Made by a program: the position numbers and the translations under genes
IMG/VR virus record: IMGVR_UViG_3300045988_126550
Location: 32,001-96,000 of that record
DNA length: 64,000 bases
Direction: 5' to 3' (one strand)
Origin: a virus
Shown: positions 26,146-55,623 of the stretch, piece by piece
How the letters are laid out: each line of letters begins with the position of its first letter
Position numbering within the stretch: position 1 is the stretch's first letter
The notes under the pieces: generated by a model
Told to the model about the DNA's origin: nothing
The model's input: the letters and a program-made list of their open reading frames with translations, nothing else
Database searches by the model: none

Positions 26146-26555
26146 ATTATATTATTGCCGCACTTATTGGTATTGTGGCATGGCAAATTATTTCTTTTAT
26201 TGCTTATGAAATCAGCAAAGAGAATGAAGATGTGTTGGAGGTGTTGACACTTGGGTTAGTTGCATTTCCTGTAGGATTTGTTAACTGGATTTACAGAGTA
26301 ATCCGTTTCAAGTGGTGTAAAATGTATCTTAATGGTTATAGATTTTTCATTAATGACACGGGTTCTTGTGTATATTACATGACTGACAAACAAGCAAAGA
26401 AACTTTACAGTAAGGGTGAAAATGATCATTATATTGTAAAATGTTCAGAGGGGCGTAATTGGAAATCTCCTCCTCACAAAAGTGAAATTTACAAGGGGCA
26501 AGAAGTATTCCATGGCATTTATGTGAAAAAGTATTGGAAGGAGCAATCGGTATGA
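26142..26555 (+). CDS. hypothetical membrane protein
   Basis: ATGA overlap. Two N-terminal hydrophobic helices. Confidence 0.65.
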   Translation: MNYIIAALIGIVAWQIISFIAYEISKENEDVLEVLTLGLVAFPVGFVNWIYRVIRFKWCKMYLNGYRFFINDTGSCVYYMTDKQAKKLYSKGENDHYIVKCSEGRNWKSPPHKSEIYKGQEVFHGIYVKKYWKEQSV

Positions 26556-26875
26556 CAAATGAAGAAATCCTTGCAAAGATTGCTGAGCTAGGAGACCTAA
26601 AAGACAAGCCGGTAACATGGGGAGATTTACTTGAAACCTTGTGTGCTATGAGTACTGAAATTATGGAAACAATCAAAATTGCAGATGAGTGTCAAGACAA
26701 GGTTGTTGATAGCTTAGGTGAACATGTATTGAAACTATATAACGAAGCTGAATATCGACGCATGCGTAGTATGGCATTTGTTCTCGCTATTACTGGGCAT
26801 ACAGATTCAACTAAATGGTATCCTATTTATGAGGAGTTTTGCAAGGAGTATGATAAGTTAAATAGAAAGGAATGA
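26552..26875 (+). CDS. hypothetical protein
   Basis: Internal ATG with a GGAAGGAG RBS. Confidence 0.6.
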   Translation: MTNEEILAKIAELGDLKDKPVTWGDLLETLCAMSTEIMETIKIADECQDKVVDSLGEHVLKLYNEAEYRRMRSMAFVLAITGHTDSTKWYPIYEEFCKEYDKLNRKE

Positions 26876-39336: not shown

Positions 39337-40200
39337 ATGGGTGGCGGTTCTTGGACGAGAGATAGCTTTACTAGCTATGTAACTACTGCAAAGTGTGCAA
39401 TGGTAGACGATTTTGGTGTTGTCAGAGGACTAAATAGTGTTCAGGATAATTTTAAGTCGAGATGTCTAGTGGCGGAGCTTAATCCTAAAAATGTTGTTCG
39501 CGAGTGTGTAGATTCCGCAGAACATCCTAATACAAAGCCTGTTATTCTGGCGCTCGATGTAACTGGCAGTATGGGAAGTGCAGCAATGGAAGTTGCAAAG
39601 CAGATCAATGTTGTTATGACAAGCCTATATGAGAAGATGACAGATGTTGAATTTATGATTATGGGTATTGGAGATCTTGCTTATGATAACGCTCCAATTC
39701 AAGCGTCTCAGTTTGAATCAGATATCAGAATCGCAGAACAGCTTGATAAGATTTATTTTGAGGGCGGTGGCGGCGGCAATTCTTATGAGTCCTATACTGC
39801 CGCATGGTATTTTGGGCTTAATCATACCAAGCTAGATTGTTGGAGTCGTGGGCAGAAGGGTGTTATTATTACAATGGGTGATGAACCTTTGAATCCGTAT
39901 CTGCCTAAGAATACTCTATCTGTTGCGACTGGTGATAATCTACAGGATGATGTTGAGACAGCTCAGCTTTATAAGGACGCTTCTGGAAAGTTCGATATCT
40001 ACCATTTGTATGTAAAGCATGGGTATGGTCGTTATGAAGAAGCTGTTAAGGATACTTTCGGCAAGTTTCTTGATGCGAATCATCTCAAGACTACATCTGT
40101 AAATAAGATTGCAGATGATATTATTGAAATTGTAACAAATGCATTTACTGGAAGCGATACAAGTACATTTGTAAATACTAGTGAAGGAATTTCTTGGTAA
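39337..40200 (+). CDS. von Willebrand factor A (vWA) domain protein
   Basis: MIDAS-like LALDVTGSMGS, plus GGGGGNSYES and ITMGDEP. Confidence 0.75.
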   Translation: MGGGSWTRDSFTSYVTTAKCAMVDDFGVVRGLNSVQDNFKSRCLVAELNPKNVVRECVDSAEHPNTKPVILALDVTGSMGSAAMEVAKQINVVMTSLYEKMTDVEFMIMGIGDLAYDNAPIQASQFESDIRIAEQLDKIYFEGGGGGNSYESYTAAWYFGLNHTKLDCWSRGQKGVIITMGDEPLNPYLPKNTLSVATGDNLQDDVETAQLYKDASGKFDIYHLYVKHGYGRYEEAVKDTFGKFLDANHLKTTSVNKIADDIIEIVTNAFTGSDTSTFVNTSEGISW

Positions 40201-41794: not shown

Positions 41795-41822
41795 TTGACA
41801 AATAAAAAATTTGTGGTATAAT
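41795..41822 (+). promoter_or_regulatory. sigma-A-type promoter (extended -10) upstream of the tRNA island
   Basis: TTGACA-N16-TGgTATAAT. Confidence 0.65.
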
Positions 41823-41887: not shown

Positions 41888-42011
41888 GCGATGATAGTCC
41901 AATGGTTAAGACGGCAGCTATTATTTTGAAGTGTCTAGCTAGACACGAACAGCAAGTTTGCAAAATTAATGCTCCAAGCTGCAATTGTAGGTTCGATTCC
42001 TACTCATCGCA
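41888..42011 (+). tRNA. tRNA-like gene with a 59-nt sequence in place of the 7-nt anticodon loop (isotype undetermined; Glu/Gln-like D arm)
   Basis: Perfect 7-bp acceptor GCGATGA/TCATCGC, D arm GTC-CAATGGTTAA-GAC, T arm GTAGG-TTCGATT-CCTAC and a 5-bp stem GCAGC/GCTGC enclosing 59 nt. The enclosed sequence includes the palindrome GTGTCTAGCTAGACAC. Confidence 0.55.
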
Positions 42012-42019
42012 ATAATATG

Positions 42020-42136
42020 TCTCCTGTAGCTCAGTTGGATAGAGCACTTAATAACGAGACTTGCAAAAGCCTTAAACAGCAAATTTCTATTGGTCTGTTA
42101 AACCAGAGGTCACAGGTTCGAGCCCTGTCAGGAGAC
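42020..42136 (+). tRNA. tRNA-Asn(GTT) interrupted by a ~43-nt insertion between the D arm and the anticodon stem
   Basis: TCTCCTG-TA-GCTC-AGTTGGATA-GAGC-A-[43 nt]-TTGGT-CTGTTAA-ACCAG-AGGTC-ACAGG-TTCGAGC-CCTGT-CAGGAGA-C. Close to the E. coli tRNA-Asn layout apart from the insertion. Confidence 0.6.
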
Positions 42137-42142
42137 TTTAAA

Positions 42143-42197
42143 AAGGCACTAGCAGCAACTTTAAACAATATGCTGGATATTATATTGATGGTGCCTT
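42143..42197 (+). repeat. ACAGCAA-family hairpin element A
   Basis: 7-bp stem AAGGCAC/GTGCCTT enclosing an AT-rich loop that starts TA-GCAGCAA. Confidence 0.4.
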
Positions 42198-42207
42198 GCC
42201 TTACATA

Positions 42208-42275
42208 GAGACGCTTACAGCAATTTAAAAAAGATGAAAATGATATTTTTACTAATGATTTTATTTTGGCGTCTC
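42208..42275 (+). repeat. ACAGCAA-family hairpin element B
   Basis: 7-bp stem GAGACGC/GCGTCTC enclosing an AT-rich loop that starts TT-ACAGCAA. Confidence 0.4.
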
Positions 42276-42378
42276 GTTGAATAAACTCCAAAGGCACTAA
42301 CAGCAAATTTTCAATGTGGAGAATACATAAGAATGTGTCTTGGGATTTAGAAATAAATCAAAAATGGAGGAAAGAAAA

Positions 42379-43926
42379 ATGTCTTTTATGAATGCAGTAA
42401 AGAATACTTTGAATGAGGAGTTTAATTACTCGGTAACTGAAAATGGCGCCCTTGGGTATCGTACTTCTGGCAAAGAACTGACTGACCTAAACTTTGCCGT
42501 TGCCTCTATGCGCGGTATGAACGAGAAGACCATCTATGATAAGTTCACGAAGGTTTATTTCGAAGACAAGATGATGGCTTTACGTTGGTTATTTTTCGCA
42601 AGAGATGTTCGTGGCGGTCTTGGCGAGAGACGTTTGTTCAGAACGGTTCTTAAAAATATGGCAAAGGACGACCCCAATACTGTTAAACGTCTTGCCTGTC
42701 TGGTGAGCGAGTATGGCCGTTATGATGACCTGTGGTGTCTGTTTGGAACGGATGTGGATGGTGTTGTTTTCGATATCATTAAGAAGCAGCTTTCTGATGA
42801 CATCGCAAATATGGCAGAGAATAAACCCGTATCTCTTCTTGCTAAGTGGCTCCCTTCCGTAAATGCTTCTTCTACAAGAACTAAGATGGACGCAAGATAT
42901 ATTTGCAAGAATCTTGGAATGACAGAGAGTAAGTATCGTAAGATTCTTTCTTCTCTGCGTTCTTACATTGACATTGTAGAAAGTAAGATGTCTGCAAAGA
43001 AGTGGGAAGAAATTAAGTACGAAACGGTTCCTTCTCGTGCAAATCTAATCTACAACAACGCTTTCCTCCGTAACGATGAGGAGCGTCGCAGAGAGTATCT
43101 GAGCAAGCTTGAAAAGGGTGAAACTAAAATCAATGCAGGAACTTTGTTCCCCCATGACATCGTTCACAAATATTGCAGTGGACGTATGTATAGCTATGGC
43201 GTTGGTAAGTACGATGCAACTATTGAATCTCTTTGGAAGGCTTTGCCCAATACAGTAAACGAGTGTGGGAACACTATTGTGGTTGCAGATGGCTCCGGTT
43301 CTATGTACTGCAATGTTGGCGGAAATACTTGTGTTACGGCACTTGAAGTTGCAAATGCACTTGCAATTTACTTTGCAGAGCATTCTTCTGGTGACTTTAA
43401 GGATAAATACATTACTTTCTCTAGCAGACCTCAGTTGGTTGATTTTAGTCAGTGCGATTCTCTAAGAGATAAGCTACGTGTTGCATATAGTCATTACGAG
43501 TGTTCAAATACAAACATTGAAAAGGTGTTTGATTTGATTCTTACTACTGCGGTGAATGGTCATATGAAGCAGGAGGATATGCCTAAGAATGTACTGATTA
43601 TTTCAGACATGGAGTTTGACTTTTGTGCAACTTGTGGTGGTTCCAATGGATGGAGTCTTAATAGACCTAGTGCAAGACTTTTTGATGTAATCAAGAAGCG
43701 TTTCGAGGATGCTGGGTATCAGATGCCTAGACTGGTCTTCTGGAATGTAAATTCTCGTACTGGCACTATTCCTGTAAAGGAGAACGACCTTGGTGTTGCT
43801 CTTGTTAGTGGTTTCTCCACTAATGTTTGCAAGATGGTCATGAGTGGTAAGACTGATCCTTACGAGTGCCTTGTTGAGACGCTTATGAGTGAGAGATATG
43901 ATGCAGTTGAGGCTGCGTTAAAGTAA
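42379..43926 (+). CDS. DUF2828-like helical domain + C-terminal vWA protein (Ro60-like architecture)
   Basis: N-terminus TENGALGYRTSG...LDLNF...ARDVRGGLGERRLF matches my recollection of the UCP015417/DUF2828 family. C-terminal MIDAS VVADGSGSM. ATG at 42379 lies 8 nt after GGAGG. Confidence 0.75.
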   Translation: MSFMNAVKNTLNEEFNYSVTENGALGYRTSGKELTDLNFAVASMRGMNEKTIYDKFTKVYFEDKMMALRWLFFARDVRGGLGERRLFRTVLKNMAKDDPNTVKRLACLVSEYGRYDDLWCLFGTDVDGVVFDIIKKQLSDDIANMAENKPVSLLAKWLPSVNASSTRTKMDARYICKNLGMTESKYRKILSSLRSYIDIVESKMSAKKWEEIKYETVPSRANLIYNNAFLRNDEERRREYLSKLEKGETKINAGTLFPHDIVHKYCSGRMYSYGVGKYDATIESLWKALPNTVNECGNTIVVADGSGSMYCNVGGNTCVTALEVANALAIYFAEHSSGDFKDKYITFSSRPQLVDFSQCDSLRDKLRVAYSHYECSNTNIEKVFDLILTTAVNGHMKQEDMPKNVLIISDMEFDFCATCGGSNGWSLNRPSARLFDVIKKRFEDAGYQMPRLVFWNVNSRTGTIPVKENDLGVALVSGFSTNVCKMVMSGKTDPYECLVETLMSERYDAVEAALK

Positions 43927-43932
43927 TGAAAA

Positions 43933-43993
43933 AAGACTCGAACAGCAACTATTAAAGGATTTGACTGCTAATCAAAATTACCTAAAGAGTCTT
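43933..43993 (+). repeat. ACAGCAA-family hairpin element C
   Basis: 7-bp stem AAGACTC/GAGTCTT with a loop that starts GA-ACAGCAA. Confidence 0.4.
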
Positions 43994-44035: not shown

Positions 44036-44167
44036 GCGGGTATGGTGGAATCGGCAGACACAAGGGACTTGCTGATAGCCAGTGCTTTGGTAGGGGCAGC
44101 ACCTACAATCAGTACCAAAAATCCCTCGGAGAAATCCATGCGAGTTCAAATCTCGCTACCCGCACCA
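44036..44167 (+). tRNA. type II tRNA-Leu (anticodon TAA if spliced) with a 47-nt insertion in the anticodon loop; CCA encoded
   Basis: GCGGGTA-TG-GTG-GAATCGGCAGA-CAC-A-AGGGA-CTT[47 nt]AAAA-TCCCT-variable arm CGGAGAAATCCAT-GCGAG-TTCAAAT-CTCGC-TACCCGC-A-CCA. Confidence 0.65.
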
Positions 44168-44309
44168 TGACCTTGGCAAGTCATTAAACTACCACAGCTA
44201 TAAGCTGATAACCACATACTACGGACGAACTGCGTGTGGCTCCCAAGTGGATGAAGGTTTGATCGTCTGGCAGGTTGGCGCTCCTGTCGAAGTTAAAAGC
44301 GCGTTATAT

Positions 44310-44376
44310 CCTCTTTTAGTGTAAAGGTTGCACAGCTCCGCCGAGGAGTAGGAACGGTTCGATTCCGTGCAGAGGA
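44310..44376 (+). ncRNA. tRNA-like element with a truncated anticodon arm (possible pseudo-tRNA or mimic)
   Basis: D arm GTGT-AAAGGTT-GCAC, T arm ACGG-TTCGATT-CCGT and an imperfect acceptor CCTCTTT/GCAGAGG. The anticodon arm is reduced to CTCC-GCCGA-GGAG. The flanks GCGCT/AGCGC can extend the acceptor helix. Confidence 0.3.
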
Positions 44377-44556
44377 GCGCTTGACACGGCGCTGGTGTTA
44401 TCTCTGGCATACGGATTACTAGTATGCAAAGCATTTACTTCGGTGGAAAATGCGGGGCAGAACAGAACCTTGGGTCTGTCACTTACACATCCATCCAAGT
44501 GTGGTTTGTGCTGAGGCCGGTGATGGGGCGGTCGTTTATAATACCCCATTCAATAT

Positions 44557-44633
44557 GCGCCACTATCCCAACAGGCAGAGGAAATGCACTCAAAATGCAT
44601 CAAGTCTCAGTTCGAATCTGAGATGGCGTACCA
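44557..44633 (+). tRNA. tRNA with anticodon CAA but a short variable loop (not Leu-type architecture); CCA encoded
   Basis: GCGCCAC-TA-TCC-CAACAGGCAGA-GGA-A-ATGCA-CTCAAAA-TGCAT-CAAGT-CTCAG-TTCGAAT-CTGAG-ATGGCGT-A-CCA. G1-U72 wobble and a 7-66 mismatch. Confidence 0.5.
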
Positions 44634-45076
44634 AATGATAGTAAGTAGTGCAAATTTCATAAGTGATTACCGATGAGAATAAGCTCCCGACAGGATTTGC
44701 TAACTGTTGATATTAATTAGATGAGCTGAAGGTAATTGACGAAACACTATGAAATGGAGTCATGCACGGCTCCGCTTGCTATCATTACCACACCGTTTGA
44801 TGTGTGCCGACGGTATAAAAAATGGTAAACATCATTTCAAGGGTAGAGGATATGAAATGTGAATCCAGCCACTTGAATTGAGTCCTATAGCCCATGGTAC
44901 TAGTGGACTATGCGTGAATGGACACTACTTGAGATAGCATCAAAACAGCAATCCTAAAAAGTACCTGAAACGCTAGGCAATTATGAAATTATAGTTATTA
45001 AATCCTTCTTAAACCAAAGTTCACAGAATGGTCAACCAAGATAATTAAGGTTAAGTATTTAATAACTATAATATAT

Positions 45077-45172
45077 GCCCTCATAGTTTAACGGTAAAAC
45101 ACCCGGTTTATACCCGGCATTGAGGCTCCAGATTAGGGCACGTTCTCCGTTCGAATCGGAGTGGGGGTACCA
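45077..45172 (+). tRNA. tRNA-Ile(TAT)-like gene with a ~26-nt variable region; CCA encoded
   Basis: GCCCTCA-TA-GTTT-AACGGTA-AAAC-A-CCCGG-TTTATAC-CCGGC-[ATTGAGGCTCCAGATTAGGGCACGTT]-CTCCG-TTCGAAT-CGGAG-TGGGGGT-A-CCA. Confidence 0.5.
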
Positions 45173-47932: not shown

Positions 47933-48088
47933 ATGAAGACAGATAAGTATATTTTATTTTATAAGCATAATGGAGTTAATAAATGGATTGACGCAAATAA
48001 TCTATCACTGCTTAAAACAGTGCCGAATATTTGCGAGTGGATGACAGAATACAAAATTATTGACAGCACAACTGGAGAGGAGGTATAA
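47933..48088 (+). CDS. small hypothetical protein (51 aa)
   Basis: AAAGGATGG RBS after a promoter and a leader motif. Confidence 0.45.
   Translation: MKTDKYILFYKHNGVNKWIDANNLSLLKTVPNICEWMTEYKIIDSTTGEEV
48050..48060 (+). promoter_or_regulatory. leader-motif variant TACAAAATTAT
   Basis: 29 nt upstream of ATG 48090, inside a small ORF. Confidence 0.35.
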
Positions 48089-48089
48089 A

Positions 48090-49190
48090 ATGAGAGTGTA
48101 TATGGACAATGCTGCCACAACTCCCATTTGTGAAGCAGCAAAGAAAGTTATTCTAGAAAATTTGGATGAGTTCTATAATCCCAACAGTTCTTATGAGACG
48201 GCTCGTAATGTCAAAGTAAAGGTAGAAGAAGCACGTGAAAAGATTGCGGAGTTGATTGGGGCAGAACCAAACGAAATCTATTTCACGTCTGGTGGATCAG
48301 AAGCAAACTCATGGGTGATGTGTAATGGATTTTCTGTTACTTCTAATATTGAACATCATTCTATTAAATCAGATTTTAAAATTAATGTAGATTCAAATGG
48401 ATTGATTGATTGTACAAAATTTAAAACAAAGATACATGAAATGAAAGACAATGATTTTTGTATCCCACCAAGCATTGCATCGTGTATGTTTGTAAATAAC
48501 GAAATAGGGGTAATTGAACCAATTAAAGACTTGGCAAAGATTGCACATGACAATAATATGTTATTTCATTCAGACGCAGTACAGGCCTTCCCTCATATGA
48601 AGATTGATGTAAAAAATCTTGGCGTAGATATGATGTCGTGTTCGGGGCACAAGTTTGGTTCTCCTAAGGGGATCGGCTTCCTGTATATTAAAAATGGAAT
48701 TAGTATTAATCCATTAATTAATGGTGGCGGGCAGGAAAGAGGGATCCGAGGCGGCACGACCAATGTACTGGGCGTCCTTGCAATGGCGGCAGCTTTAGAA
48801 GATACAATCGCGCACATGGATGAAAACAACGCGAAAGTCTCTTGCTTATCAAAGAAATTAAAGGATAACTTACTTGGGGTAAAAGGAGTCACACTTAATG
48901 CAATTGATGCAAAAACTCCATGTATAGAAAGTATTTTAAACCTCAGGATTGACGATGTGAAGAGTTCTGACCTAGTCACAATGTGTGATCTATATGGCAT
49001 TGAGATTAGCTCTGGGTCGGCATGTAACGAAGGAACAGCAGAGCCTTCTCATGTGCTCAAAGCTATTGGGCTCACAACCGAACAGGCATTAAGCAGCATT
49101 AGAATCTCACTATCTCATCTAAACACTGAAGAAGAAATCGACTATGTTTCTAAAATGTTACCAAAAATTATTTCCAGATTACGCCAGTAA
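48090..49190 (+). CDS. cysteine desulfurase (NifS/IscS-like class V aminotransferase)
   Basis: YMDNAATTP, SGGSEAN, HSDAVQA, the PLP lysine in SGHKFGSPKG, and the catalytic Cys in SSGSACNEG. Confidence 0.85.
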   Translation: MRVYMDNAATTPICEAAKKVILENLDEFYNPNSSYETARNVKVKVEEAREKIAELIGAEPNEIYFTSGGSEANSWVMCNGFSVTSNIEHHSIKSDFKINVDSNGLIDCTKFKTKIHEMKDNDFCIPPSIASCMFVNNEIGVIEPIKDLAKIAHDNNMLFHSDAVQAFPHMKIDVKNLGVDMMSCSGHKFGSPKGIGFLYIKNGISINPLINGGGQERGIRGGTTNVLGVLAMAAALEDTIAHMDENNAKVSCLSKKLKDNLLGVKGVTLNAIDAKTPCIESILNLRIDDVKSSDLVTMCDLYGIEISSGSACNEGTAEPSHVLKAIGLTTEQALSSIRISLSHLNTEEEIDYVSKMLPKIISRLRQ

Positions 49191-51428: not shown

Positions 51429-51908
51429 ATGGGAACTAACTTCTATATGATTACAAAGAACAAAGAAATGGCTCAGCGGTATGCACCATATTCTTATGAG
51501 CTTACGGATACGCCATATTTCGGATATGAGATTCACGTAGCCAAGACTAGTTTTGGCTGGTTGCCGCTTTTCCAAGAGCATAAAGATGGTATTAACTCTG
51601 TAGCTGAGTATAAAGTGGCATATGATACAAATGAGTTTAAAATTTATGATGAATACGGATGTGAATACAATTGGGATGCCTTTGATGATAGAGTGCTAAA
51701 GTTCAATGGCGGGGTTCTTGGGGTACAGGAGCCGAAGAAGATTGAGCAAAACAAATATTTTCGATGGTATGACAAGAGCATGCCAGACTATTGCCCTGTT
51801 AGTCATATTAGTGGAAGTCTGCAGAGCTATAAGTTTGATGGTTTGTTTGCGAATGATTATTTCGTTGACGCTGATGGATTTGAATTTTCAAGGAGTGAAT
51901 TTTCGTAA
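51429..51908 (+). CDS. hypothetical protein
   Basis: 159-aa ORF with an AAGGAGA RBS. Confidence 0.7.
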   Translation: MGTNFYMITKNKEMAQRYAPYSYELTDTPYFGYEIHVAKTSFGWLPLFQEHKDGINSVAEYKVAYDTNEFKIYDEYGCEYNWDAFDDRVLKFNGGVLGVQEPKKIEQNKYFRWYDKSMPDYCPVSHISGSLQSYKFDGLFANDYFVDADGFEFSRSEFS

Positions 51909-53023
51909 TGTATCATCTTGAACTAAGAGACTTCATTCTTTCTCATGAAAACTGGGAAGAACTACTCACAGCTGATCCTTACAACCTAAAGATTTCTCGT
52001 GATGGCAATTATATCATGTTCAAGTATAATCAAATCTCTTCTGATTTTACAATTCCTCTAGTTCGTGAAGCACGTGGAATTATTTTCAGAGAGAGTGATT
52101 GGGAATGTGTCTGCGAAAAATTTACAAAATTCGGCAATTACGGCGAGTCTTATTGCCCAGACATTGATTGGGCAACTGCTTCTGTGCAGGAAAAAGTTGA
52201 TGGATCGCTTATTGGCATGTTTTATGATAATGGATGGCATATTTGTACCAATGGTACAATTGATGCCTTTAAAGCGGAACTTAATGATGTGAAGTATCAG
52301 AATTTTGGGCAGCTTGTCCTTGCGGCAATTCATCGTGTATTTGAAGACGAGCATAAGTTCTTTACGATGCTAGATCCAAAATGTACATATATGTTTGAAC
52401 TCGTGTCTCCTTATAACCGTGTTGTAATTCCGTATGAAGACACTAAGCTATATTTTCTTGGTATACGTGATATGGAAGATGGGAAAGAATGGAATCCAGA
52501 AGATTCTGATATAAGCTATGATTTTGAAATGCCTAAGCGTTATTCTCTTCATTCTCTTGAAGATGTACAGAAGGCAGCAAATGCACTTCCTTGGGACGAA
52601 GAAGGTTATGTGGTATGCGACGCAAATTTCAACAGAGTAAAGATTAAGTCTGGTGCTTACGTTATGGCACATTATGCTCGTAATAATGGAGTAGTCAATA
52701 CAGAGCGTCTTGTTCAGATTATACTGGATGGAGAGCAGGAAGAGTTCCTTACTTATGCATCCGATTATACTGACGAGTTAAAGAAAGTGGGAAAAGCAAT
52801 GTATGAGATTGGGTATAAAGCATTTGATAAGCTGAGAGAAATTTTTAACATGAAAGAGTTTGAAACTCGTGGTGCTTATGCTCGTGAAGTTATGAAATGC
52901 CCAATGTATATGAAAGACTTCCTATTCCATTGTTTTGATTCTAGAATCTTTTGGGATTATGCAAAGTCTTGGGATGCAAATAAATGGGTTAAAGCTATTA
53001 ATGAATTAAATGGAGGTATTTAA
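51908..53023 (+). CDS. Rnl1-family (T4 RnlA-like) ATP-dependent RNA ligase
   Basis: Aligns by eye with T4 Rnl1: REARGIIF/ECRGIMF, motif I QEKVDGSL/TKEDGSL, FELVSPYNRVV/FEFVAPTNRIV and EGYVVCD..RVKIKS/EGYVAVM..HFKIKS. Confidence 0.85.
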   Translation: MYHLELRDFILSHENWEELLTADPYNLKISRDGNYIMFKYNQISSDFTIPLVREARGIIFRESDWECVCEKFTKFGNYGESYCPDIDWATASVQEKVDGSLIGMFYDNGWHICTNGTIDAFKAELNDVKYQNFGQLVLAAIHRVFEDEHKFFTMLDPKCTYMFELVSPYNRVVIPYEDTKLYFLGIRDMEDGKEWNPEDSDISYDFEMPKRYSLHSLEDVQKAANALPWDEEGYVVCDANFNRVKIKSGAYVMAHYARNNGVVNTERLVQIILDGEQEEFLTYASDYTDELKKVGKAMYEIGYKAFDKLREIFNMKEFETRGAYAREVMKCPMYMKDFLFHCFDSRIFWDYAKSWDANKWVKAINELNGGI

Positions 53024-54097: not shown

Positions 54098-54718
54098 ATG
54101 ATTAACATTCGTCAAGACTTGATTCAAAAGGAGTTTGAAAAAGGTTGTACCAATGGGCTTACATTTCGAAAATTAAAGCCTAGCAATAGATTTATTGATA
54201 AGCTTTTTAATCATTACTATGTTGCCGAGCACACAGAACATTTCTATGATTCTGAGCCGGAATATGATGATGAAGAATTCAATATGTATATGGATTACGC
54301 TTATATTCATCATAGAATAAATCCTACTTCTGGCACTGCTCTTTTTAATACAATTCTTAATTCTGAAGAAATAGCAAAAGAACAAGAAGACTTTCGTTTT
54401 TCAAAAGAAGAACACACAATAGAAGAACTAAAGCAAGCGTATGATAAAATTATACAACAGAGAAAAGATTATGAGCTACACAGAATTGAATTTAACAACT
54501 GGATAGAGCCTTATTTTAAGGGTAATTGGAGAATGTCTCAGAAAGATGTTGACAAAATTAGCAGAGAGCATCTTGAATACACAAAGAAATGTGGAGTAAG
54601 TTATAATGGCAGACTTTACATTGCAGAAAAAGAAGATTCGATTTTTATTTATTACTACGGCAGAGATTTTGCAATGGTAGATTATTGGTGGATTTTTAAG
54701 AGAAGAAGGAGAAAATAA
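54098..54718 (+). CDS. hypothetical protein
   Basis: 206-aa ORF, tightly packed. Confidence 0.7.
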   Translation: MINIRQDLIQKEFEKGCTNGLTFRKLKPSNRFIDKLFNHYYVAEHTEHFYDSEPEYDDEEFNMYMDYAYIHHRINPTSGTALFNTILNSEEIAKEQEDFRFSKEEHTIEELKQAYDKIIQQRKDYELHRIEFNNWIEPYFKGNWRMSQKDVDKISREHLEYTKKCGVSYNGRLYIAEKEDSIFIYYYGRDFAMVDYWWIFKRRRRK

Positions 54719-55623
54719 TGGTTAAGTGTTTTGTTATGTGTGGACTCCCCGCAAGCGGAAAGAGTTGGCAAGCCAAGAAACTTGCCGAGGAATATGATGC
54801 AGAAATTTTCTCTAGTGACTCACTTCGAGAGGAAATGTTCGGAGATGTGAATCATCAGGCAGACAACGATGCTCTGTTCAAGGAACTACATAAGCGTATT
54901 AGAGAGCGTCTTGCTTCTGGCAAGAATGCCATTTATGACGCCTGCAATATCAGTTATAAGCGCCGTATGGAATTCCTTAAGTCTCTTAACAAAATTCCTT
55001 GTGAGAAAATTGCAATCCTCATGGCAACGCCTTATGAAGTCTGTCTTGAACGTAACACACAACGAGAGCGTAAAGTCCCAGAACATGTTATTAAACGTAT
55101 GTATATGAGCTGGAATAGTCCATATTGGTATGAAGGTTGGGACGATATTCAGATTGTATATTCAGAAGGAGCAGAAGGAAGCTACGGAGGAGTAGGTGAT
55201 TGGGTTGAGTCTGTTATGGATTACAACCAACATAACAGCCATCATTCTTTAACACTTGGGGAACATTGTCTCAAAACATTCGAATACTTAAATTCATTGC
55301 CAGTTGCATTCTGGGAACTTAGAACTGCGGCGTTGATACATGATTGTGGCAAATGCAAAAGTGCTACATATATCAATAGTAAGGGCGAACAAACGGATGA
55401 ATGCCATTATTATAATCACCAATTTTGTGGATCATACGACAGCTTGTTCTTCAGCGGTATAGATAGACATCTTTATATTGCGCAACTTATTCAATGGCAT
55501 ATGAGAGCGTACCTTGCGTGGGAGCATTCTGAAAAAGCAATGCAGAAGGATAGAAAACTTCTTGGGAAGACTTTATTTAATGATATTTGTTTGCTTCACG
55601 AAGCAGACCTTGCAGCGCATTAA
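54718..55623 (+). CDS. polynucleotide kinase-like P-loop domain fused to an HD phosphohydrolase domain
   Basis: Walker A CGLPASGKS and a kinase-like N-terminal half. The C-terminal half carries HSLTLGEH...LIHDCGK...H. A terminator follows. Confidence 0.75.
   Translation: MVKCFVMCGLPASGKSWQAKKLAEEYDAEIFSSDSLREEMFGDVNHQADNDALFKELHKRIRERLASGKNAIYDACNISYKRRMEFLKSLNKIPCEKIAILMATPYEVCLERNTQRERKVPEHVIKRMYMSWNSPYWYEGWDDIQIVYSEGAEGSYGGVGDWVESVMDYNQHNSHHSLTLGEHCLKTFEYLNSLPVAFWELRTAALIHDCGKCKSATYINSKGEQTDECHYYNHQFCGSYDSLFFSGIDRHLYIAQLIQWHMRAYLAWEHSEKAMQKDRKLLGKTLFNDICLLHEADLAAH

What the first reader, a model, noticed from the sequence alone, without database searches (positions are those of the whole stretch)
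42379..43926. A Ro60-like (helical domain + MIDAS vWA) protein gene is embedded between tRNA genes and repeated hairpins
The N-terminal region matches my recollection of the DUF2828/UCP015417 family (TENGA..Y.T.G...LD..F and RDVRGG.GER..F). The C-terminus is a vWA domain with a DxSxS MIDAS (ADGSGSM). A helical RNA-binding ring followed by a vWA domain is the architecture of Ro60/Rsr.

Three points are established knowledge. Bacterial Rsr binds Y RNAs. Some of those Y RNAs have tRNA-like modules. In Salmonella the rsr and Y-RNA genes are co-operonic with the rtcB/rtcA RNA repair genes.

Here the only protein-coding gene in the first 4 kb of the tRNA/ncRNA island has that architecture. It is flanked on both sides by ACAGCAA hairpins and by aberrant tRNA-like genes, and the same genome carries an RNA repair set. 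The inference is a phage-encoded Ro/Y-RNA-like RNP acting on tRNAs or tRNA-like RNAs.
Basis: partly seen in the sequence, partly recalled or inferred. Interest (0 to 1): 0.65.

Follow-up and report, generated by a model that had tools for sequence, protein, structure and literature searches.

The report
Phage Ro60-like protein with partner RNAs
This phage gene encodes a distant relative of the ring-shaped RNA-binding protein Ro60, and it is always accompanied, here and in hundreds of unrelated phages, by small structured RNAs carrying the same seven-letter motif (ACAGCAA), which are probably its so far undescribed RNA partners.

Summary
ORF 42379-43926 (+) encodes a 515-aa protein of Pfam DUF2828 + DUF7788 (PHROG 850, 'RNA-binding protein') with a complete MIDAS motif.

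It is a full-length homologue of Ro60. Profile-profile comparison with phage TROVE/Ro60 proteins gives 98.9% probability (E 3e-17, 419 columns). For an AlphaFold model (pLDDT 89), the only full-length PDB matches are Ro60 structures (TM 0.52-0.58). The 'Ro-like' label already exists in phage annotation, so that part is not new.

The flanking 'ACAGCAA hairpins' are a real RNA element and, as far as I could find, are not described. The form is a 7-10 bp helix, two nucleotides, then invariant ACAGCAA, then a 30-100 nt loop.
- It occurs as three tandem stem-loops in the gene's leader, one after the stop codon, and inside two tRNA-like RNAs.
- It accompanies DUF2828 genes on the same strand in 2-5 copies, in about 86% of 144 diverse loci. 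Those include Felixounavirus, Listeria P100-like, Staphylococcus, Mycobacterium, Campylobacter, Bacillus and Aeromonas phages.
- It is also present where no tRNA is nearby.
- In the reverse test, 42 of 64 extended-motif matches in IMG/VR lie beside a DUF2828 gene, all on the same strand.

Best reading: a phage Ro/Y-RNA-like RNP with a new RNA class. RNA binding and the target are inferred.

The parts
41795..41822 (+). Consensus sigma-70 promoter (TTGACA, 16 nt, TG-TATAAT). It probably drives the tRNA-like RNAs, the hairpins and the Ro-like gene as one transcript.
   Evidence: 12/12 match with extended -10, and no terminator-like site before the gene. The same promoter type is conserved upstream of the island in all relatives examined.
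41888..42011 (+). t1, a tRNA-like RNA. The acceptor, D and T arms are intact. The anticodon loop is replaced by 59 nt holding a hairpin (GUGUCUAG/CUAGACAC), then GA, then ACAGCAA (41949-41955). No canonical anticodon loop can be recovered.
   Evidence: Rfam tRNA 49.8 bits with a 58-nt insertion in the anticodon loop. Fold. Counterparts lie 300-450 nt upstream of the gene in six relatives, with covarying tRNA arms and invariant ACAGCAA.
42020..42136 (+). t2, a tRNA-Asn(GUU)-like RNA with a ~44-nt insertion between the D arm and the anticodon stem. The insertion carries ACAGCAA (42076-42082).
   Evidence: Rfam tRNA 41.9 bits with a 56-nt insertion. The sequence read directly shows an intact anticodon arm, UUGGU-CUGUUAA-ACCAG. 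Conserved in L010 and L015.
42143..42197 (+). E1, a stem-loop: AAGGCAC, UA, GCAGCAA (variant motif), ~32-nt loop, GUGCCUU.
   Evidence: Sequence. Conserved in relatives, which have ACAGCAA at this place.
42208..42275 (+). E2, a stem-loop: GAGACGC, UU, ACAGCAA (42217-42223), ~45-nt loop, GCGUCUC.
   Evidence: The stem covaries between relatives (GAGACGC/GCGUCUC against GAGAGAC/GUCUCUC).
42288..42359 (+). E3, the 5'-UTR element: CCAAAGGCAC, UA, ACAGCAA (42300-42306), loop, GUGUCUUGG, followed by the small hairpin GAUUUA-GAAA-UAAAUC. The Shine-Dalgarno GGAGG lies at 42366-42370.
   Evidence: RNAalifold on 7 loci. Covariance model R1 finds it at the same place in 27 loci. 98.3% of cells are paired and 4 pairs carry compensatory changes.
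42379..43926 (+). Gene for a 515-aa Ro60-like protein: N-terminal helical TROVE-like domain (DUF2828, ~1-297) plus vWA/MIDAS domain (DUF7788, ~298-491; D304-G-S306-G-S308, T378, D410).
43933..43993 (+). E4, a stem-loop just after the stop codon: AAGACUC, GA, ACAGCAA (43942-43948), ~38-nt loop, GAGUCUU.
   Evidence: Conserved in L010 and L015.
44036..44167 (+). t3, an insert-bearing tRNA-like gene (~130 nt, ends in CCA). It has no ACAGCAA, so whether it belongs to the system is uncertain.
   Evidence: Rfam tRNA 43.1 bits. Fold z = -2.5. The module is conserved but shuffled among relatives.
44945..44951 (+). A further ACAGCAA copy inside an unassigned non-coding module (44630-44990).

Best explanation
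**What it is.** The gene encodes a divergent Ro60 homologue. It has a ring-forming TROVE-like helical domain closed by a vWA/MIDAS domain. It belongs to the DUF2828/DUF7788 family, which by the number of phage records matched in the GenBank collection is far commoner than canonical TROVE proteins (710 against 87).

**How it is expressed.** It is transcribed from a consensus early-type sigma-70 promoter together with a set of small structured RNAs.

**The RNAs.** All of them display the same module: a 7-10 bp helix, two nucleotides, the invariant single-stranded heptamer ACAGCAA, and a variable loop. The module comes in two forms:
- plain stem-loops (E1-E4);
- grafts into tRNA-like scaffolds (t1, t2).

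**Proposed mechanism.** I propose these RNAs are the protein's cognate ligands, playing the role that Y RNAs (YrlA, Yrl1/2) play for Ro60/Rsr. Protein and RNAs would form a phage RNP. The copy in the gene's own leader may also allow autoregulation.

**Proposed role.** The role is inferred from three things:
- analogy with Rsr-Y RNA-PNPase and with phiLo phiRo60-Yrl-PNPase;
- the tRNA mimicry;
- frequent linkage to tRNA clusters and RNA ligases or kinases.

On that basis the RNP most likely gates or recruits an RNA-processing enzyme (host exoribonuclease or repair ligase) onto tRNAs or other structured RNAs during infection. That would mean tRNA/ncRNA quality control, or protection against RNA-targeting host defences.

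**Shown.** Homology and fold; co-orientation and probable co-transcription; conservation, strand specificity, helix formation and gene linkage of the RNA module.

**Inferred.** Protein-RNA binding, RNP formation, the enzyme partner and the biological target.
For: **Protein**
- Pfam and PHROG assignment.
- hhalign of the family profile against 9 phage TROVE/Ro60 proteins, including the crystallised phiRo60: 98.9% probability, E 2.9e-17, residues 23-481 against 20-474.
- AlphaFold2 model with pLDDT 89.1 and pTM 0.89.
- The only full-length PDB matches are Ro60 entries: 1yvr TM 0.58, 9kop 0.52/0.57, 2i91, 9l5y. The next matches are vWA-only.
- The family profile's best PDB sequence matches are Ro60.
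- The MIDAS residues are invariant.

**Motif near the gene**
- Window clade, 80 loci: 227 + strand copies in the 600 nt upstream, 9 in the CDS, 0 on the minus strand in that 600 nt.
- 10 cultured phages from 4 bacterial phyla, with proteins only 33-38% identical: 38 + strand copies against 1 minus-strand copy, clustered beside the gene.
- 64 diverse IMG/VR loci: 137 copies within 700 nt of the gene against ~5.5 expected; 56 of 64 loci are positive.
- 80 GTDB loci: 69 of 80 positive.

**Helix**
- In 128 of 296 instances, a perfect 7-nt complement of the 5' flank lies downstream.
- Shuffles give 1.8.
- Stem sequences differ between phages.

**tRNA-like form**
- 92 of 299 instances are followed by a T-arm-like sequence.

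**Specificity**
- Reverse search of all IMG/VR: 42 of 64 extended-motif matches have a DUF2828 gene in the stored locus.
- All 42 are on the same strand.
- 51 of 64 loci with no tRNA within 2.5 kb still carry the motif.
- Canonical TROVE loci lack it.

**Expression and precedent**
- In the P100-like Listeria phage CKA15, the three most transcribed regions lie within 2 kb upstream of the homologue, on the same strand (PMC12282133).
- Precedents are Chen 2014 (PMC4201824) and Hu 2025 (PMC12135203).

**Linkage to RNA repair and tRNAs**
- Rnl1, Pnk and Thg1-like genes in the window.
- RtcB 1.3 kb downstream in LMSP-25 and 4 kb downstream in L012.
- tRNA clusters abut the gene in EC6, PC14, FADO and RSP15 and lie 620 nt upstream in LMSP-25.
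Against:
- The protein does not hit Pfam TROVE by sequence.
- The RNAs do not resemble YrlA or carry its GNCGAA motif. The only YrlA hit is sub-threshold and spans two adjacent tRNA-like genes, a known artefact (PMC4201824).
- Elements in a gene's own leader and just after its stop codon could be purely cis-acting: processing, stability or translational control.
- 14% of diverse loci show no exact ACAGCAA near the gene.
- The highly abundant RNA of CKA15 (positions 26,236-26,727) seems to lie further upstream than the three hairpins of the related LMSP-25. Hairpin expression is therefore not yet demonstrated.
- TM scores of 0.5-0.6 show the same architecture but substantial divergence.
Confidence: 0.55

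Rival explanations
1. The ACAGCAA stem-loops are cis-acting RNA signals. They could be endonuclease processing sites that separate tRNAs from the mRNA in a polycistronic precursor, 5'/3' stabilisers, or a translational operator. They would be recognised by a host or phage RNase rather than acting as trans-acting partners of the Ro-like protein. The protein would then have another ligand, for example misfolded or damaged tRNAs.
For: - The elements sit in the gene's leader (E1-E3) and immediately after its stop codon (E4), inside a probable single transcript with tRNAs.
- E3 lies at a fixed distance (~80 nt) from the start codon in relatives.
- Ro60 proteins also bind misfolded RNAs without Y RNAs (PDB 2i91 is among the matches).
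Against: - A generic processing signal should follow tRNA clusters, but 51 of 64 tRNA-free loci keep the motif beside the gene.
- tRNAs further from the gene in the window and in EC6 lack it.
- The heptamer is invariant across hosts from Actinobacteria to Campylobacter. Their RNases differ, whereas the co-inherited protein is the common factor.
- The motif is also grafted into tRNA-like scaffolds.
- A cis autoregulatory role for the leader copy is compatible with the main explanation.
Confidence: 0.25
2. The motif-bearing insertions are a new kind of small protein-dependent tRNA intron or processing cassette. ACAGCAA would mark a cleavage or recognition site, the Ro-like protein would act as a maturase or chaperone, and the phage ligase set (Rnl1+Pnk, or RtcB in relatives) would reseal the tRNA.
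For: - t2 is an otherwise complete tRNA-Asn(GUU) interrupted by ~44 nt between the D arm and the anticodon stem.
- Similar insert-bearing tRNAs occur in relatives and in Aeromonas phage 4_4572.
- RNA ligases are encoded nearby or in the same genomes.
Against: - Most copies are free-standing hairpins, not inside tRNAs.
- t1 yields no canonical anticodon loop whatever is removed (and direct reading).
- No bulge-helix-bulge motif or splicing endonuclease was found.
- Many loci have the motif and no tRNA at all.
Confidence: 0.07
3. The protein is a vWA/MIDAS protein-interaction factor with no RNA role, for example a cofactor of an ATPase or an assembly or defence-related adaptor. Its resemblance to Ro60 would be only structural ancestry, and the neighbouring motif would be an unrelated DNA-level site (promoter or operator).
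For: - vWA domains usually mediate protein contacts.
- A second vWA-like ORF (39337-40200) lies 2 kb upstream.
- No direct RNA-binding evidence exists.
- The family is still named DUF in Pfam.
Against: - Homology covers the whole helical ring, not only the vWA domain.
- Many invariant Arg/Lys residues lie in the helical domain.
- The motif is strictly strand-specific.
- Each copy is flanked by complementary stems of different sequence, as expected for RNA and not for a promoter or operator.
- A canonical sigma-70 promoter already precedes the unit.
- No MoxR-type ATPase is adjacent.
Confidence: 0.08

Closest known systems
Ro60/Rsr with Y RNAs (Deinococcus Rsr-Yrn1, Salmonella Rsr-YrlA/YrlB; Chen et al. 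2014, PMC4201824)
   Same: - Full-length homology and the same ring + vWA/MIDAS architecture.
- Small structured RNAs are encoded next to the gene on the same strand.
- Some of those RNAs mimic tRNA.
- Frequent linkage to RNA repair genes.
   Different: - A different Pfam family: no TROVE hit, 11-16% identity.
- The RNAs carry helix-NN-ACAGCAA instead of the YrlA Ro-binding stem and GNCGAA motif, and they do not match Rfam YrlA.
- In the tRNA-like versions the acceptor stem is formed by the RNA ends and the module replaces or adjoins the anticodon arm.
Thermus phage phiLo phiRo60 with Yrl1/Yrl2 (Hu et al. 2025, PMC12135203; PDB 9KOP, 9L5Y)
   Same: - A phage-encoded Ro60 homologue with candidate RNA partners in the upstream non-coding region.
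- It is among the closest structural matches (TM 0.52/0.57).
   Different: - phiRo60 is a canonical TROVE protein.
- Its locus has no ACAGCAA.
- Binding to its RNAs and to host PNPase has been shown experimentally; nothing comparable exists here.
DUF2828-type 'Ro-like RNA-binding protein' / PHROG 850 of cultured phages (Felix O1, Listeria P100/A511-like, Staphylococcus 6ec, Mycobacterium clusters such as LeBron gp53)
   Same: - The same family: 33-42% identity over the full length in 710 phage records.
- The same neighbouring ACAGCAA RNAs.
- In Listeria phage CKA15 the homologue lies downstream of the most highly transcribed non-coding regions, and Y RNAs were suggested there (PMC12282133).
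   Different: - In those records only the protein is annotated. No RNA motif or partner has been described in the literature I could search.
- The window's clade adds tRNA-embedded copies and a fixed three-hairpin leader.
Phage T4 tRNA repair (Pnk + Rnl1) countering anticodon nucleases
   Same: The window encodes an Rnl1-family ligase and a Pnk-type kinase, plus a Thg1-like enzyme, a few kb downstream of the tRNA island.
   Different: As far as I recall, the T4 system has no Ro-like protein or ACAGCAA RNAs; this was not checked here. A functional link between the repair enzymes and the Ro-like module is only an inference.

Membership tests
Ro60 / TROVE superfamily | Helical (HEAT-like) repeat ring homologous to the TROVE domain | tested here: met
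   - hhalign: 98.9% probability, E 2.9e-17, aligning from residue 23, including TENGA-x-GY with T-x-x-GA-x-AY.
- Foldseek: the only full-length PDB matches are Ro60 (1yvr, 9kop, 2i91, 9l5y), TM 0.49-0.58.
Ro60 / TROVE superfamily | Match to the curated Pfam TROVE model (PF05731) | tested here: not met
   - None of 65 family members hits TROVE even at E <= 10.
- 14 of 65 weakly hit vWA_Ro60 (PF25045) and 42 of 65 hit VWA_2.
- The protein is therefore a superfamily-level homologue, not a TROVE-family member by sequence.
Ro60 / TROVE superfamily | C-terminal vWA domain with a MIDAS motif (DxSxS...T...D) closing the ring | tested here: met
   - D304, S306, S308, T378 and D410 are invariant in 136 sequences.
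- The alpha/beta fold is predicted at high confidence.
- vWA structures are the secondary matches.
Ro60 / TROVE superfamily | Binds Y RNA on the outer surface and single-stranded RNA ends in the central cavity | not testable with these tools
   This needs EMSA, CLIP or a structure of the complex.
Pfam DUF2828 + DUF7788 (PHROG 850) | Scores above the curated cut-offs for both domains, in this order | tested here: met
   DUF2828 scores 119.4 bits (cut-off 29) and DUF7788 scores 156.2 bits (cut-off 27.1). PHROG 850 matches at E 3e-140 over the full length.
Y RNA / YrlA (Rfam RF02553) | Match to the YrlA covariance model at its gathering score | tested here: not met
   The best hit is 23.6 bits against 69, at 41957-42070. 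It spans the T arm of t1 and the D arm of t2. Adjacent tRNAs are known to score this way (PMC4201824).
Y RNA (functional class) | Small structured RNA encoded next to the Ro gene on the same strand, conserved with it | tested here: met
Y RNA (functional class) | tRNA-like domain in at least one RNA per genome | tested here: met
   - t1 and t2 score as tRNA with large insertions carrying the motif.
- Relatives have the same.
- 92 of 299 motif instances are followed by a T-arm-like sequence.
Y RNA (functional class) | Expressed as a stable RNA and bound by the Ro protein | not testable with these tools
   There is only indirect support: very high transcription upstream of the homologue in Listeria phage CKA15 (PMC12282133).

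The most novel reading that the evidence does not exclude
The helix-NN-ACAGCAA RNAs, both free hairpins and tRNA chimeras, are an undescribed pan-phage class of non-coding RNA. They would be the obligate partners of the DUF2828 Ro-like proteins. Together they would form the commonest Ro/Y-type RNP of the virosphere, present in Felix O1, P100/A511-like, Staphylococcus, Campylobacter and Mycobacterium phages and in gut megaphage-sized genomes. The RNP would use tRNA mimicry to recruit or block host RNA-processing or tRNA-targeting defence enzymes.
Probability: 0.4. Interest if true: 0.8.

Novelty: new variant of a known kind. Interest (0 to 1): 0.66.

Why it matters
Ro60 and its Y RNAs are a classic RNA-surveillance RNP, but their role in bacteria and phages is poorly understood.

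**Why this family matters.** The DUF2828 family is about eight times more frequent in sequenced phages than canonical TROVE proteins (710 records against 87). It occurs in therapeutic and model phages such as Felix O1, Listeria P100-like phages and mycobacteriophages. Its members are annotated only as 'RNA-binding protein', with no known ligand.

**What the motif provides.** A simple, invariant and easily mutated RNA motif that always travels with the gene gives a concrete ligand hypothesis. It can be tested directly in tractable phage-host pairs. It would also explain unannotated 'gaps' and odd tRNA-like genes next to phage tRNA clusters. It may connect to the extremely abundant non-coding transcripts seen in Listeria phage infection.

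**If the RNP gates RNases or repair enzymes on tRNAs,** it bears on the phage-host arms race over tRNA cleavage.

Tried and rejected
- **Direct sequence search of the protein against PDB.** Only chance hits.
- **First AlphaFold run with a shallow 40-sequence alignment.** pLDDT was 64. Its Foldseek ranking already pointed to Ro60 at TM ~0.4. It was superseded by the 136-sequence run.
- **Second homologue search with profile A2.** It added little diversity.
- **YrlA.** The sub-threshold hit is explained by adjacent tRNA-like genes.
- **Rfam at E <= 1 over the island, and at gathering score over 16 related loci.** No known family covers the hairpins.
- **Promoter reading of the motif.** Rejected because of the complementary flanks of differing sequence and a canonical promoter upstream.
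- **'The motif belongs to tRNA clusters'.** Rejected by the tRNA-free loci.
- **Burroughs & Aravind 2016 (ROT/TROVE in RNA repair).** Not held, so I could not check whether DUF2828 was unified with TROVE there.
- **Literature searches for DUF2828, ACAGCAA and tRNA-like Y RNAs in phages.** No description of the RNA motif was found.
- **Megablast of the island against GenBank phages.** It matched only a tRNA-Ile.
Full report
**Observation**

The ORF runs from ATG 42379 to the stop at 43926 on the + strand. A GGAGG lies 8 nt upstream of the ATG. Its translation contains the quoted motifs: TENGALGYRTSGKELTDLNF, RDVRGGLGERRLF and VVADGSGSM.

Pfam assigns DUF2828 (E 2e-34) followed by DUF7788 (E 1e-45). 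PHROGs assigns family 850, 'RNA-binding protein' (E 3e-140).

The gene is the only credible coding sequence in the first 4 kb of a non-coding island. That island starts behind a perfect sigma-70 promoter at 41795-41822.

Insert-bearing tRNA-like genes flank the gene:
- 41888-42011 (124 nt);
- 42020-42136 (117 nt);
- 44036-44164;
- 45077-45169.

Ordinary tRNAs follow further downstream.

ACAGCAA occurs six times on the + strand between 41949 and 44951, with a GCAGCAA variant at 42152. Elsewhere in the window it is at chance level.

The window is clearly phage DNA. It encodes a Pol III alpha, a RecJ and a DnaB-like helicase. It also encodes:
- an Rnl1-type RNA ligase;
- a Pnk-type kinase;
- a Thg1-like protein;
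- an HD protein;
- a NifS-like desulfurase;
- an NAD-dependent DNA ligase.

**Is the protein Ro60-like?**

A plain sequence search of PDB finds nothing. No member of the family hits Pfam TROVE. Some members weakly hit vWA_Ro60 and VWA_2.

A profile of 65 diverse members (42-60% identical) ranks Ro60 entries first in PDB, but only over the vWA part (E 0.013).

I assembled nine canonical phage TROVE proteins, including phiLo phiRo60, whose structure is solved. Profile-profile comparison gives 98.9% probability and E 2.9e-17 over 419 columns. It runs from residue 23 to 481 of the query against 20-474 of the template. The homology is therefore end to end.

A first AlphaFold model from a shallow alignment was poor (pLDDT 64), although it already ranked seven Ro60 entries first.

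With 136 sequences, down to about 33% identity to the window protein, the model reaches pLDDT 89.1 and pTM 0.89. Foldseek against PDB then returns Ro60 structures as the only matches with E <= 0.001:
- 1yvr: E 5e-8, TM 0.58, 579 columns;
- 9kop: TM 0.52/0.57;
- 2i91;
- 9l5y.

All later matches cover only the vWA domain.

In BFVD the nearest folds are DUF2828/DUF7788 proteins of phages and of giant viruses (Pithovirus TM 0.87, CroV, Mimiviridae). TROVE proteins follow.

MIDAS residues D304, S306, S308, T378 and D410 are invariant. So are several Arg/Lys residues of the helical domain.

This part is not new. 710 GenBank phage records encode full-length homologues, annotated 'RNA-binding protein', 'Ro-like RNA binding protein' or 'DUF2828'.

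**The flanking hairpins in the window's clade**

Relatives of the gene with 69-92% protein identity show the same layout. The gene sits in a gene-free stretch with tRNAs, and a ~124-nt insert-bearing tRNA-like gene lies 300-450 nt upstream.

In the alignment of these RNAs the acceptor, D and T arms covary. The tRNA body even changes identity between phages. Yet the insert always contains ACAGCAA.

The 250 nt before the start codon hold three tandem elements of one design. Each has a 7-10-nt purine-rich strand (consensus AAAGRCRC), two nucleotides, ACAGCAA, a variable loop, and the complementary strand. The third element lies about 80 nt from the ATG and is followed by a small conserved hairpin.

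A covariance model of that third element finds it at the same place in 27 loci. 98.3% of cells are paired, and four pairs show compensatory changes.

Over 80 IMG/VR loci of this clade the counts are:
- 227 + strand copies in the 600 nt upstream of the gene;
- 9 copies in the coding region;
- 0 copies on the opposite strand in the 600 nt upstream.

C at -5 and at -3 is conserved in about 90% of copies.

**The same heptamer in distant phages**

The same heptamer, in the same architecture, lies beside the homologous gene in cultured phages whose proteins are only 33-38% identical to this one:

| Phage | ACAGCAA copies next to the gene |
|---|---|
| Enterococcus iF6 | 3 upstream |
| Listeria LMSP-25 | 3 tandem hairpins, about 170-330 nt upstream of the start codon |
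| Felixounavirus EC6 | 4 downstream, among the first tRNAs |
| Mycobacterium Jobypre | 3 directly downstream |
| Campylobacter PC14 | 2 upstream |
| Staphylococcus 6ec | 3 directly downstream |
| Bacillus FADO | 5 in the upstream tRNA cluster |
| Aeromonas 4_4572 | 3 upstream |
| Ralstonia RSP15 | 1 |
| Vibrio D480 | 1 |

In total there are 38 copies on the gene's strand and 1 on the other.

The stems differ in sequence from phage to phage but are always complementary. Examples are AGGAAUC/GAUUCCU, GGACAC/GUGUCC, AGACCG/CGGUCU and GGUAC/GUACC.

Several copies are followed by a T arm, and in two phages also by a CCA-containing 3' end. Those copies therefore sit inside tRNA-like RNAs, as t1 and t2 do here. 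One of them is called as an insert-bearing tRNA by Rfam.

**Quantifying the association**

- In 64 further diverse IMG/VR loci there are 137 copies within 700 nt of the gene ends, against ~5.5 expected. 56 loci have at least one copy and 43 have at least two. Only 18 copies lie on the opposite strand in 396 kb.
- In 80 GTDB genome or MAG loci, 69 have at least one copy and 51 have at least two.
- Over 296 instances, a perfect 7-nt Watson-Crick complement of the 5' flank lies within 135 nt downstream in 128 cases. Shuffles give 1.8 and the upstream control gives 9. The median loop is 40 nt.

**Does the motif follow the gene or the tRNAs?**

A same-strand tRNA lies within 2.5 kb in:
- 72 of 76 loci of the window's clade;
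- 36 of 62 diverse viral loci;
- 16 of 55 GTDB loci.

Of 64 loci with no tRNA in the flanks, 51 still carry the motif within 700 nt. The motif therefore follows the gene.

In the reverse direction, AAAGACACNNACAGCAAWTT matches 64 stretches in all of IMG/VR. Of these, 42 have a DUF2828 homologue inside the stored locus. All 42 are on the same strand, usually 90-450 nt away. Many of the other 22 stretches have too little sequence on the relevant side.

Canonical TROVE loci, including 5 kb around phiLo phiRo60, have no flanking copy.

No Rfam family covers the element. I found no paper describing it.

**Interpretation**

The pattern has four parts:
- a Ro60 homologue;
- small structured RNAs encoded beside it on the same strand;
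- conservation of those RNAs with the gene across enormous phylogenetic distance;
- tRNA mimicry in some of the RNAs.

This is the pattern that defines Ro60-Y RNA pairs in bacteria (Chen et al. 2014, PMC4201824) and in phage phiLo (Hu et al. 2025, PMC12135203). The RNA is, however, of a different kind.

A single-stranded heptamer next to a helix also suits what is known of Ro60. There, helices bind the outer surface and single strands enter the cavity (established knowledge; PDB 2i91 is among the matches).

I therefore take the ACAGCAA RNAs to be the protein's ligands. The copy in the leader may add autoregulation.

**Expression evidence from a related phage**

The only expression data come from the P100-like Listeria phage CKA15 (PMC12282133). 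There:
- the three most transcribed regions of the genome lie within 2 kb upstream of the homologue, on the same strand;
- small ORFs in one of these regions (CKA15_059-061), which the authors conclude are non-coding, take about 67% of phage reads late in infection;
- the authors themselves suggested Y RNAs.

In the related LMSP-25 the three hairpins lie closer to the gene than that top region seems to. Expression of the hairpins themselves therefore remains to be shown.

**Function**

Function is the weakest step. The linkage evidence is:
- tRNA clusters next to the gene in many lineages;
- Rnl1, Pnk and Thg1-like genes in this genome;
- RtcB next to the gene in LMSP-25 and L012;
- Rnl2 in the Aeromonas phage;
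- Band-7 near the gene in Jobypre and L010.

Together with the Rsr-Y RNA-PNPase precedent, this points to surveillance, repair or protection of tRNAs and other structured RNAs. No step of that has been tested.

**Rivals**

- Purely cis-acting processing or stability signals (0.25).
- A protein-dependent tRNA intron system (0.07).
- A non-RNA role for the protein, with a DNA-level motif (0.08).

The evidence for and against each is given in the Rival explanations section.

**Verdict**

The Ro60-like reading is supported at the level of homology and fold, but it is already current in phage annotation.

They are a conserved, strand-specific, gene-linked RNA module that appears undescribed, and they make the function of a very common phage protein family directly testable.

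Noticed in passing
L012:266-860 (pig-gut contig, relative with 69% protein identity): A ROOL RNA (Rfam RF03087, 306.7 bits) lies about 1 kb upstream of that phage's Ro-like gene, in the same tRNA island, and an RtcB ligase gene lies 4 kb downstream. The window itself has no ROOL match.
   Followed up: partly
window:44170-45070: About 900 nt of G+C-richer non-coding sequence lies between tRNA-like genes and matches no Rfam family. It consists of modules (44210-44298, 44301-44558, 44630-44990) that are conserved at 75-98% identity but shuffled in order among related phages. These are probably further structured RNAs of unknown kind.
   Followed up: partly
window:42020-42136: t2 reads as a complete tRNA-Asn(GUU) with about 44 extra nucleotides inserted between the D arm and the anticodon stem. 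That is an unusual position for an insertion in a bacterial-type tRNA.
   Followed up: partly
L015:7546-7617 and L016:7786-7862: Close relatives encode suppressor-type tRNAs directly after the Ro-like gene. ARAGORN calls their anticodons UCA ('SeC') and CUA ('Pyl'), which hints at stop-codon recoding in this phage group. The window's long ORFs read normally in code 11.
   Followed up: no
window:40215-41363 and 39337-40200: - A very divergent adenylosuccinate-synthase homologue: PurA models score 83 bits against cut-offs near 400, and there is a weak PurZ hit of 28.8 bits.
- It is preceded by a second vWA-like ORF with DVTGSMG (PHROG 2971, unknown function).
- The pair is syntenic in relative L010, where a Band-7 protein gene lies two genes further upstream.
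   Followed up: partly
window:45077-45172: A tRNA-Ile(UAU) of 96 nt with a long extra arm. Forty of its bases are 95-97.5% identical to the tRNA-Ile of Levilactobacillus/Lactobacillus brevis phages (ENFP1, 3-521). This was the only megablast match of the island in GenBank phages.
   Followed up: no
window:57651-58484, 51908-53023, 54718-55623, 48060-49190: Downstream of the island lies a cluster of RNA and tRNA enzymes: a Thg1-like 3'-5' nucleotidyltransferase, an Rnl1-family ligase, a Pnk/KTI12-like kinase and a NifS-type cysteine desulfurase.
   Followed up: partly
window:41370-41397 and 41795-41822; relatives L010, L014-L017: There are repeated, nearly identical consensus promoters (TTGACAAATAAAAAAT...TG-TATAAT). 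Up to four occur in tandem ahead of the RNA island in relatives.
   Followed up: partly
L020:2427-3060 (Listeria phage LMSP-25): About 600 nt of non-coding sequence lies behind a strong promoter, between a tRNA and the Ro-like gene, and matches no Rfam family. It may correspond to the RNA that makes up about 67% of phage transcripts in the related phage CKA15.
   Followed up: partly
window:46315-46809: An HNH homing-endonuclease-like ORF sits inside the tRNA island (PHROG 374, E 7.5e-19). GIY-YIG endonucleases occupy similar places in relatives.
   Followed up: no
BFVD matches; protein hit P0415: The DUF2828/DUF7788 fold is also found in giant eukaryotic viruses (Pithovirus, CroV, Mimiviridae, Marseillevirus) and in a Lokiarchaeota virus. 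The family therefore spans viruses of all three domains. Whether those carry ACAGCAA RNAs was not examined.
   Followed up: no
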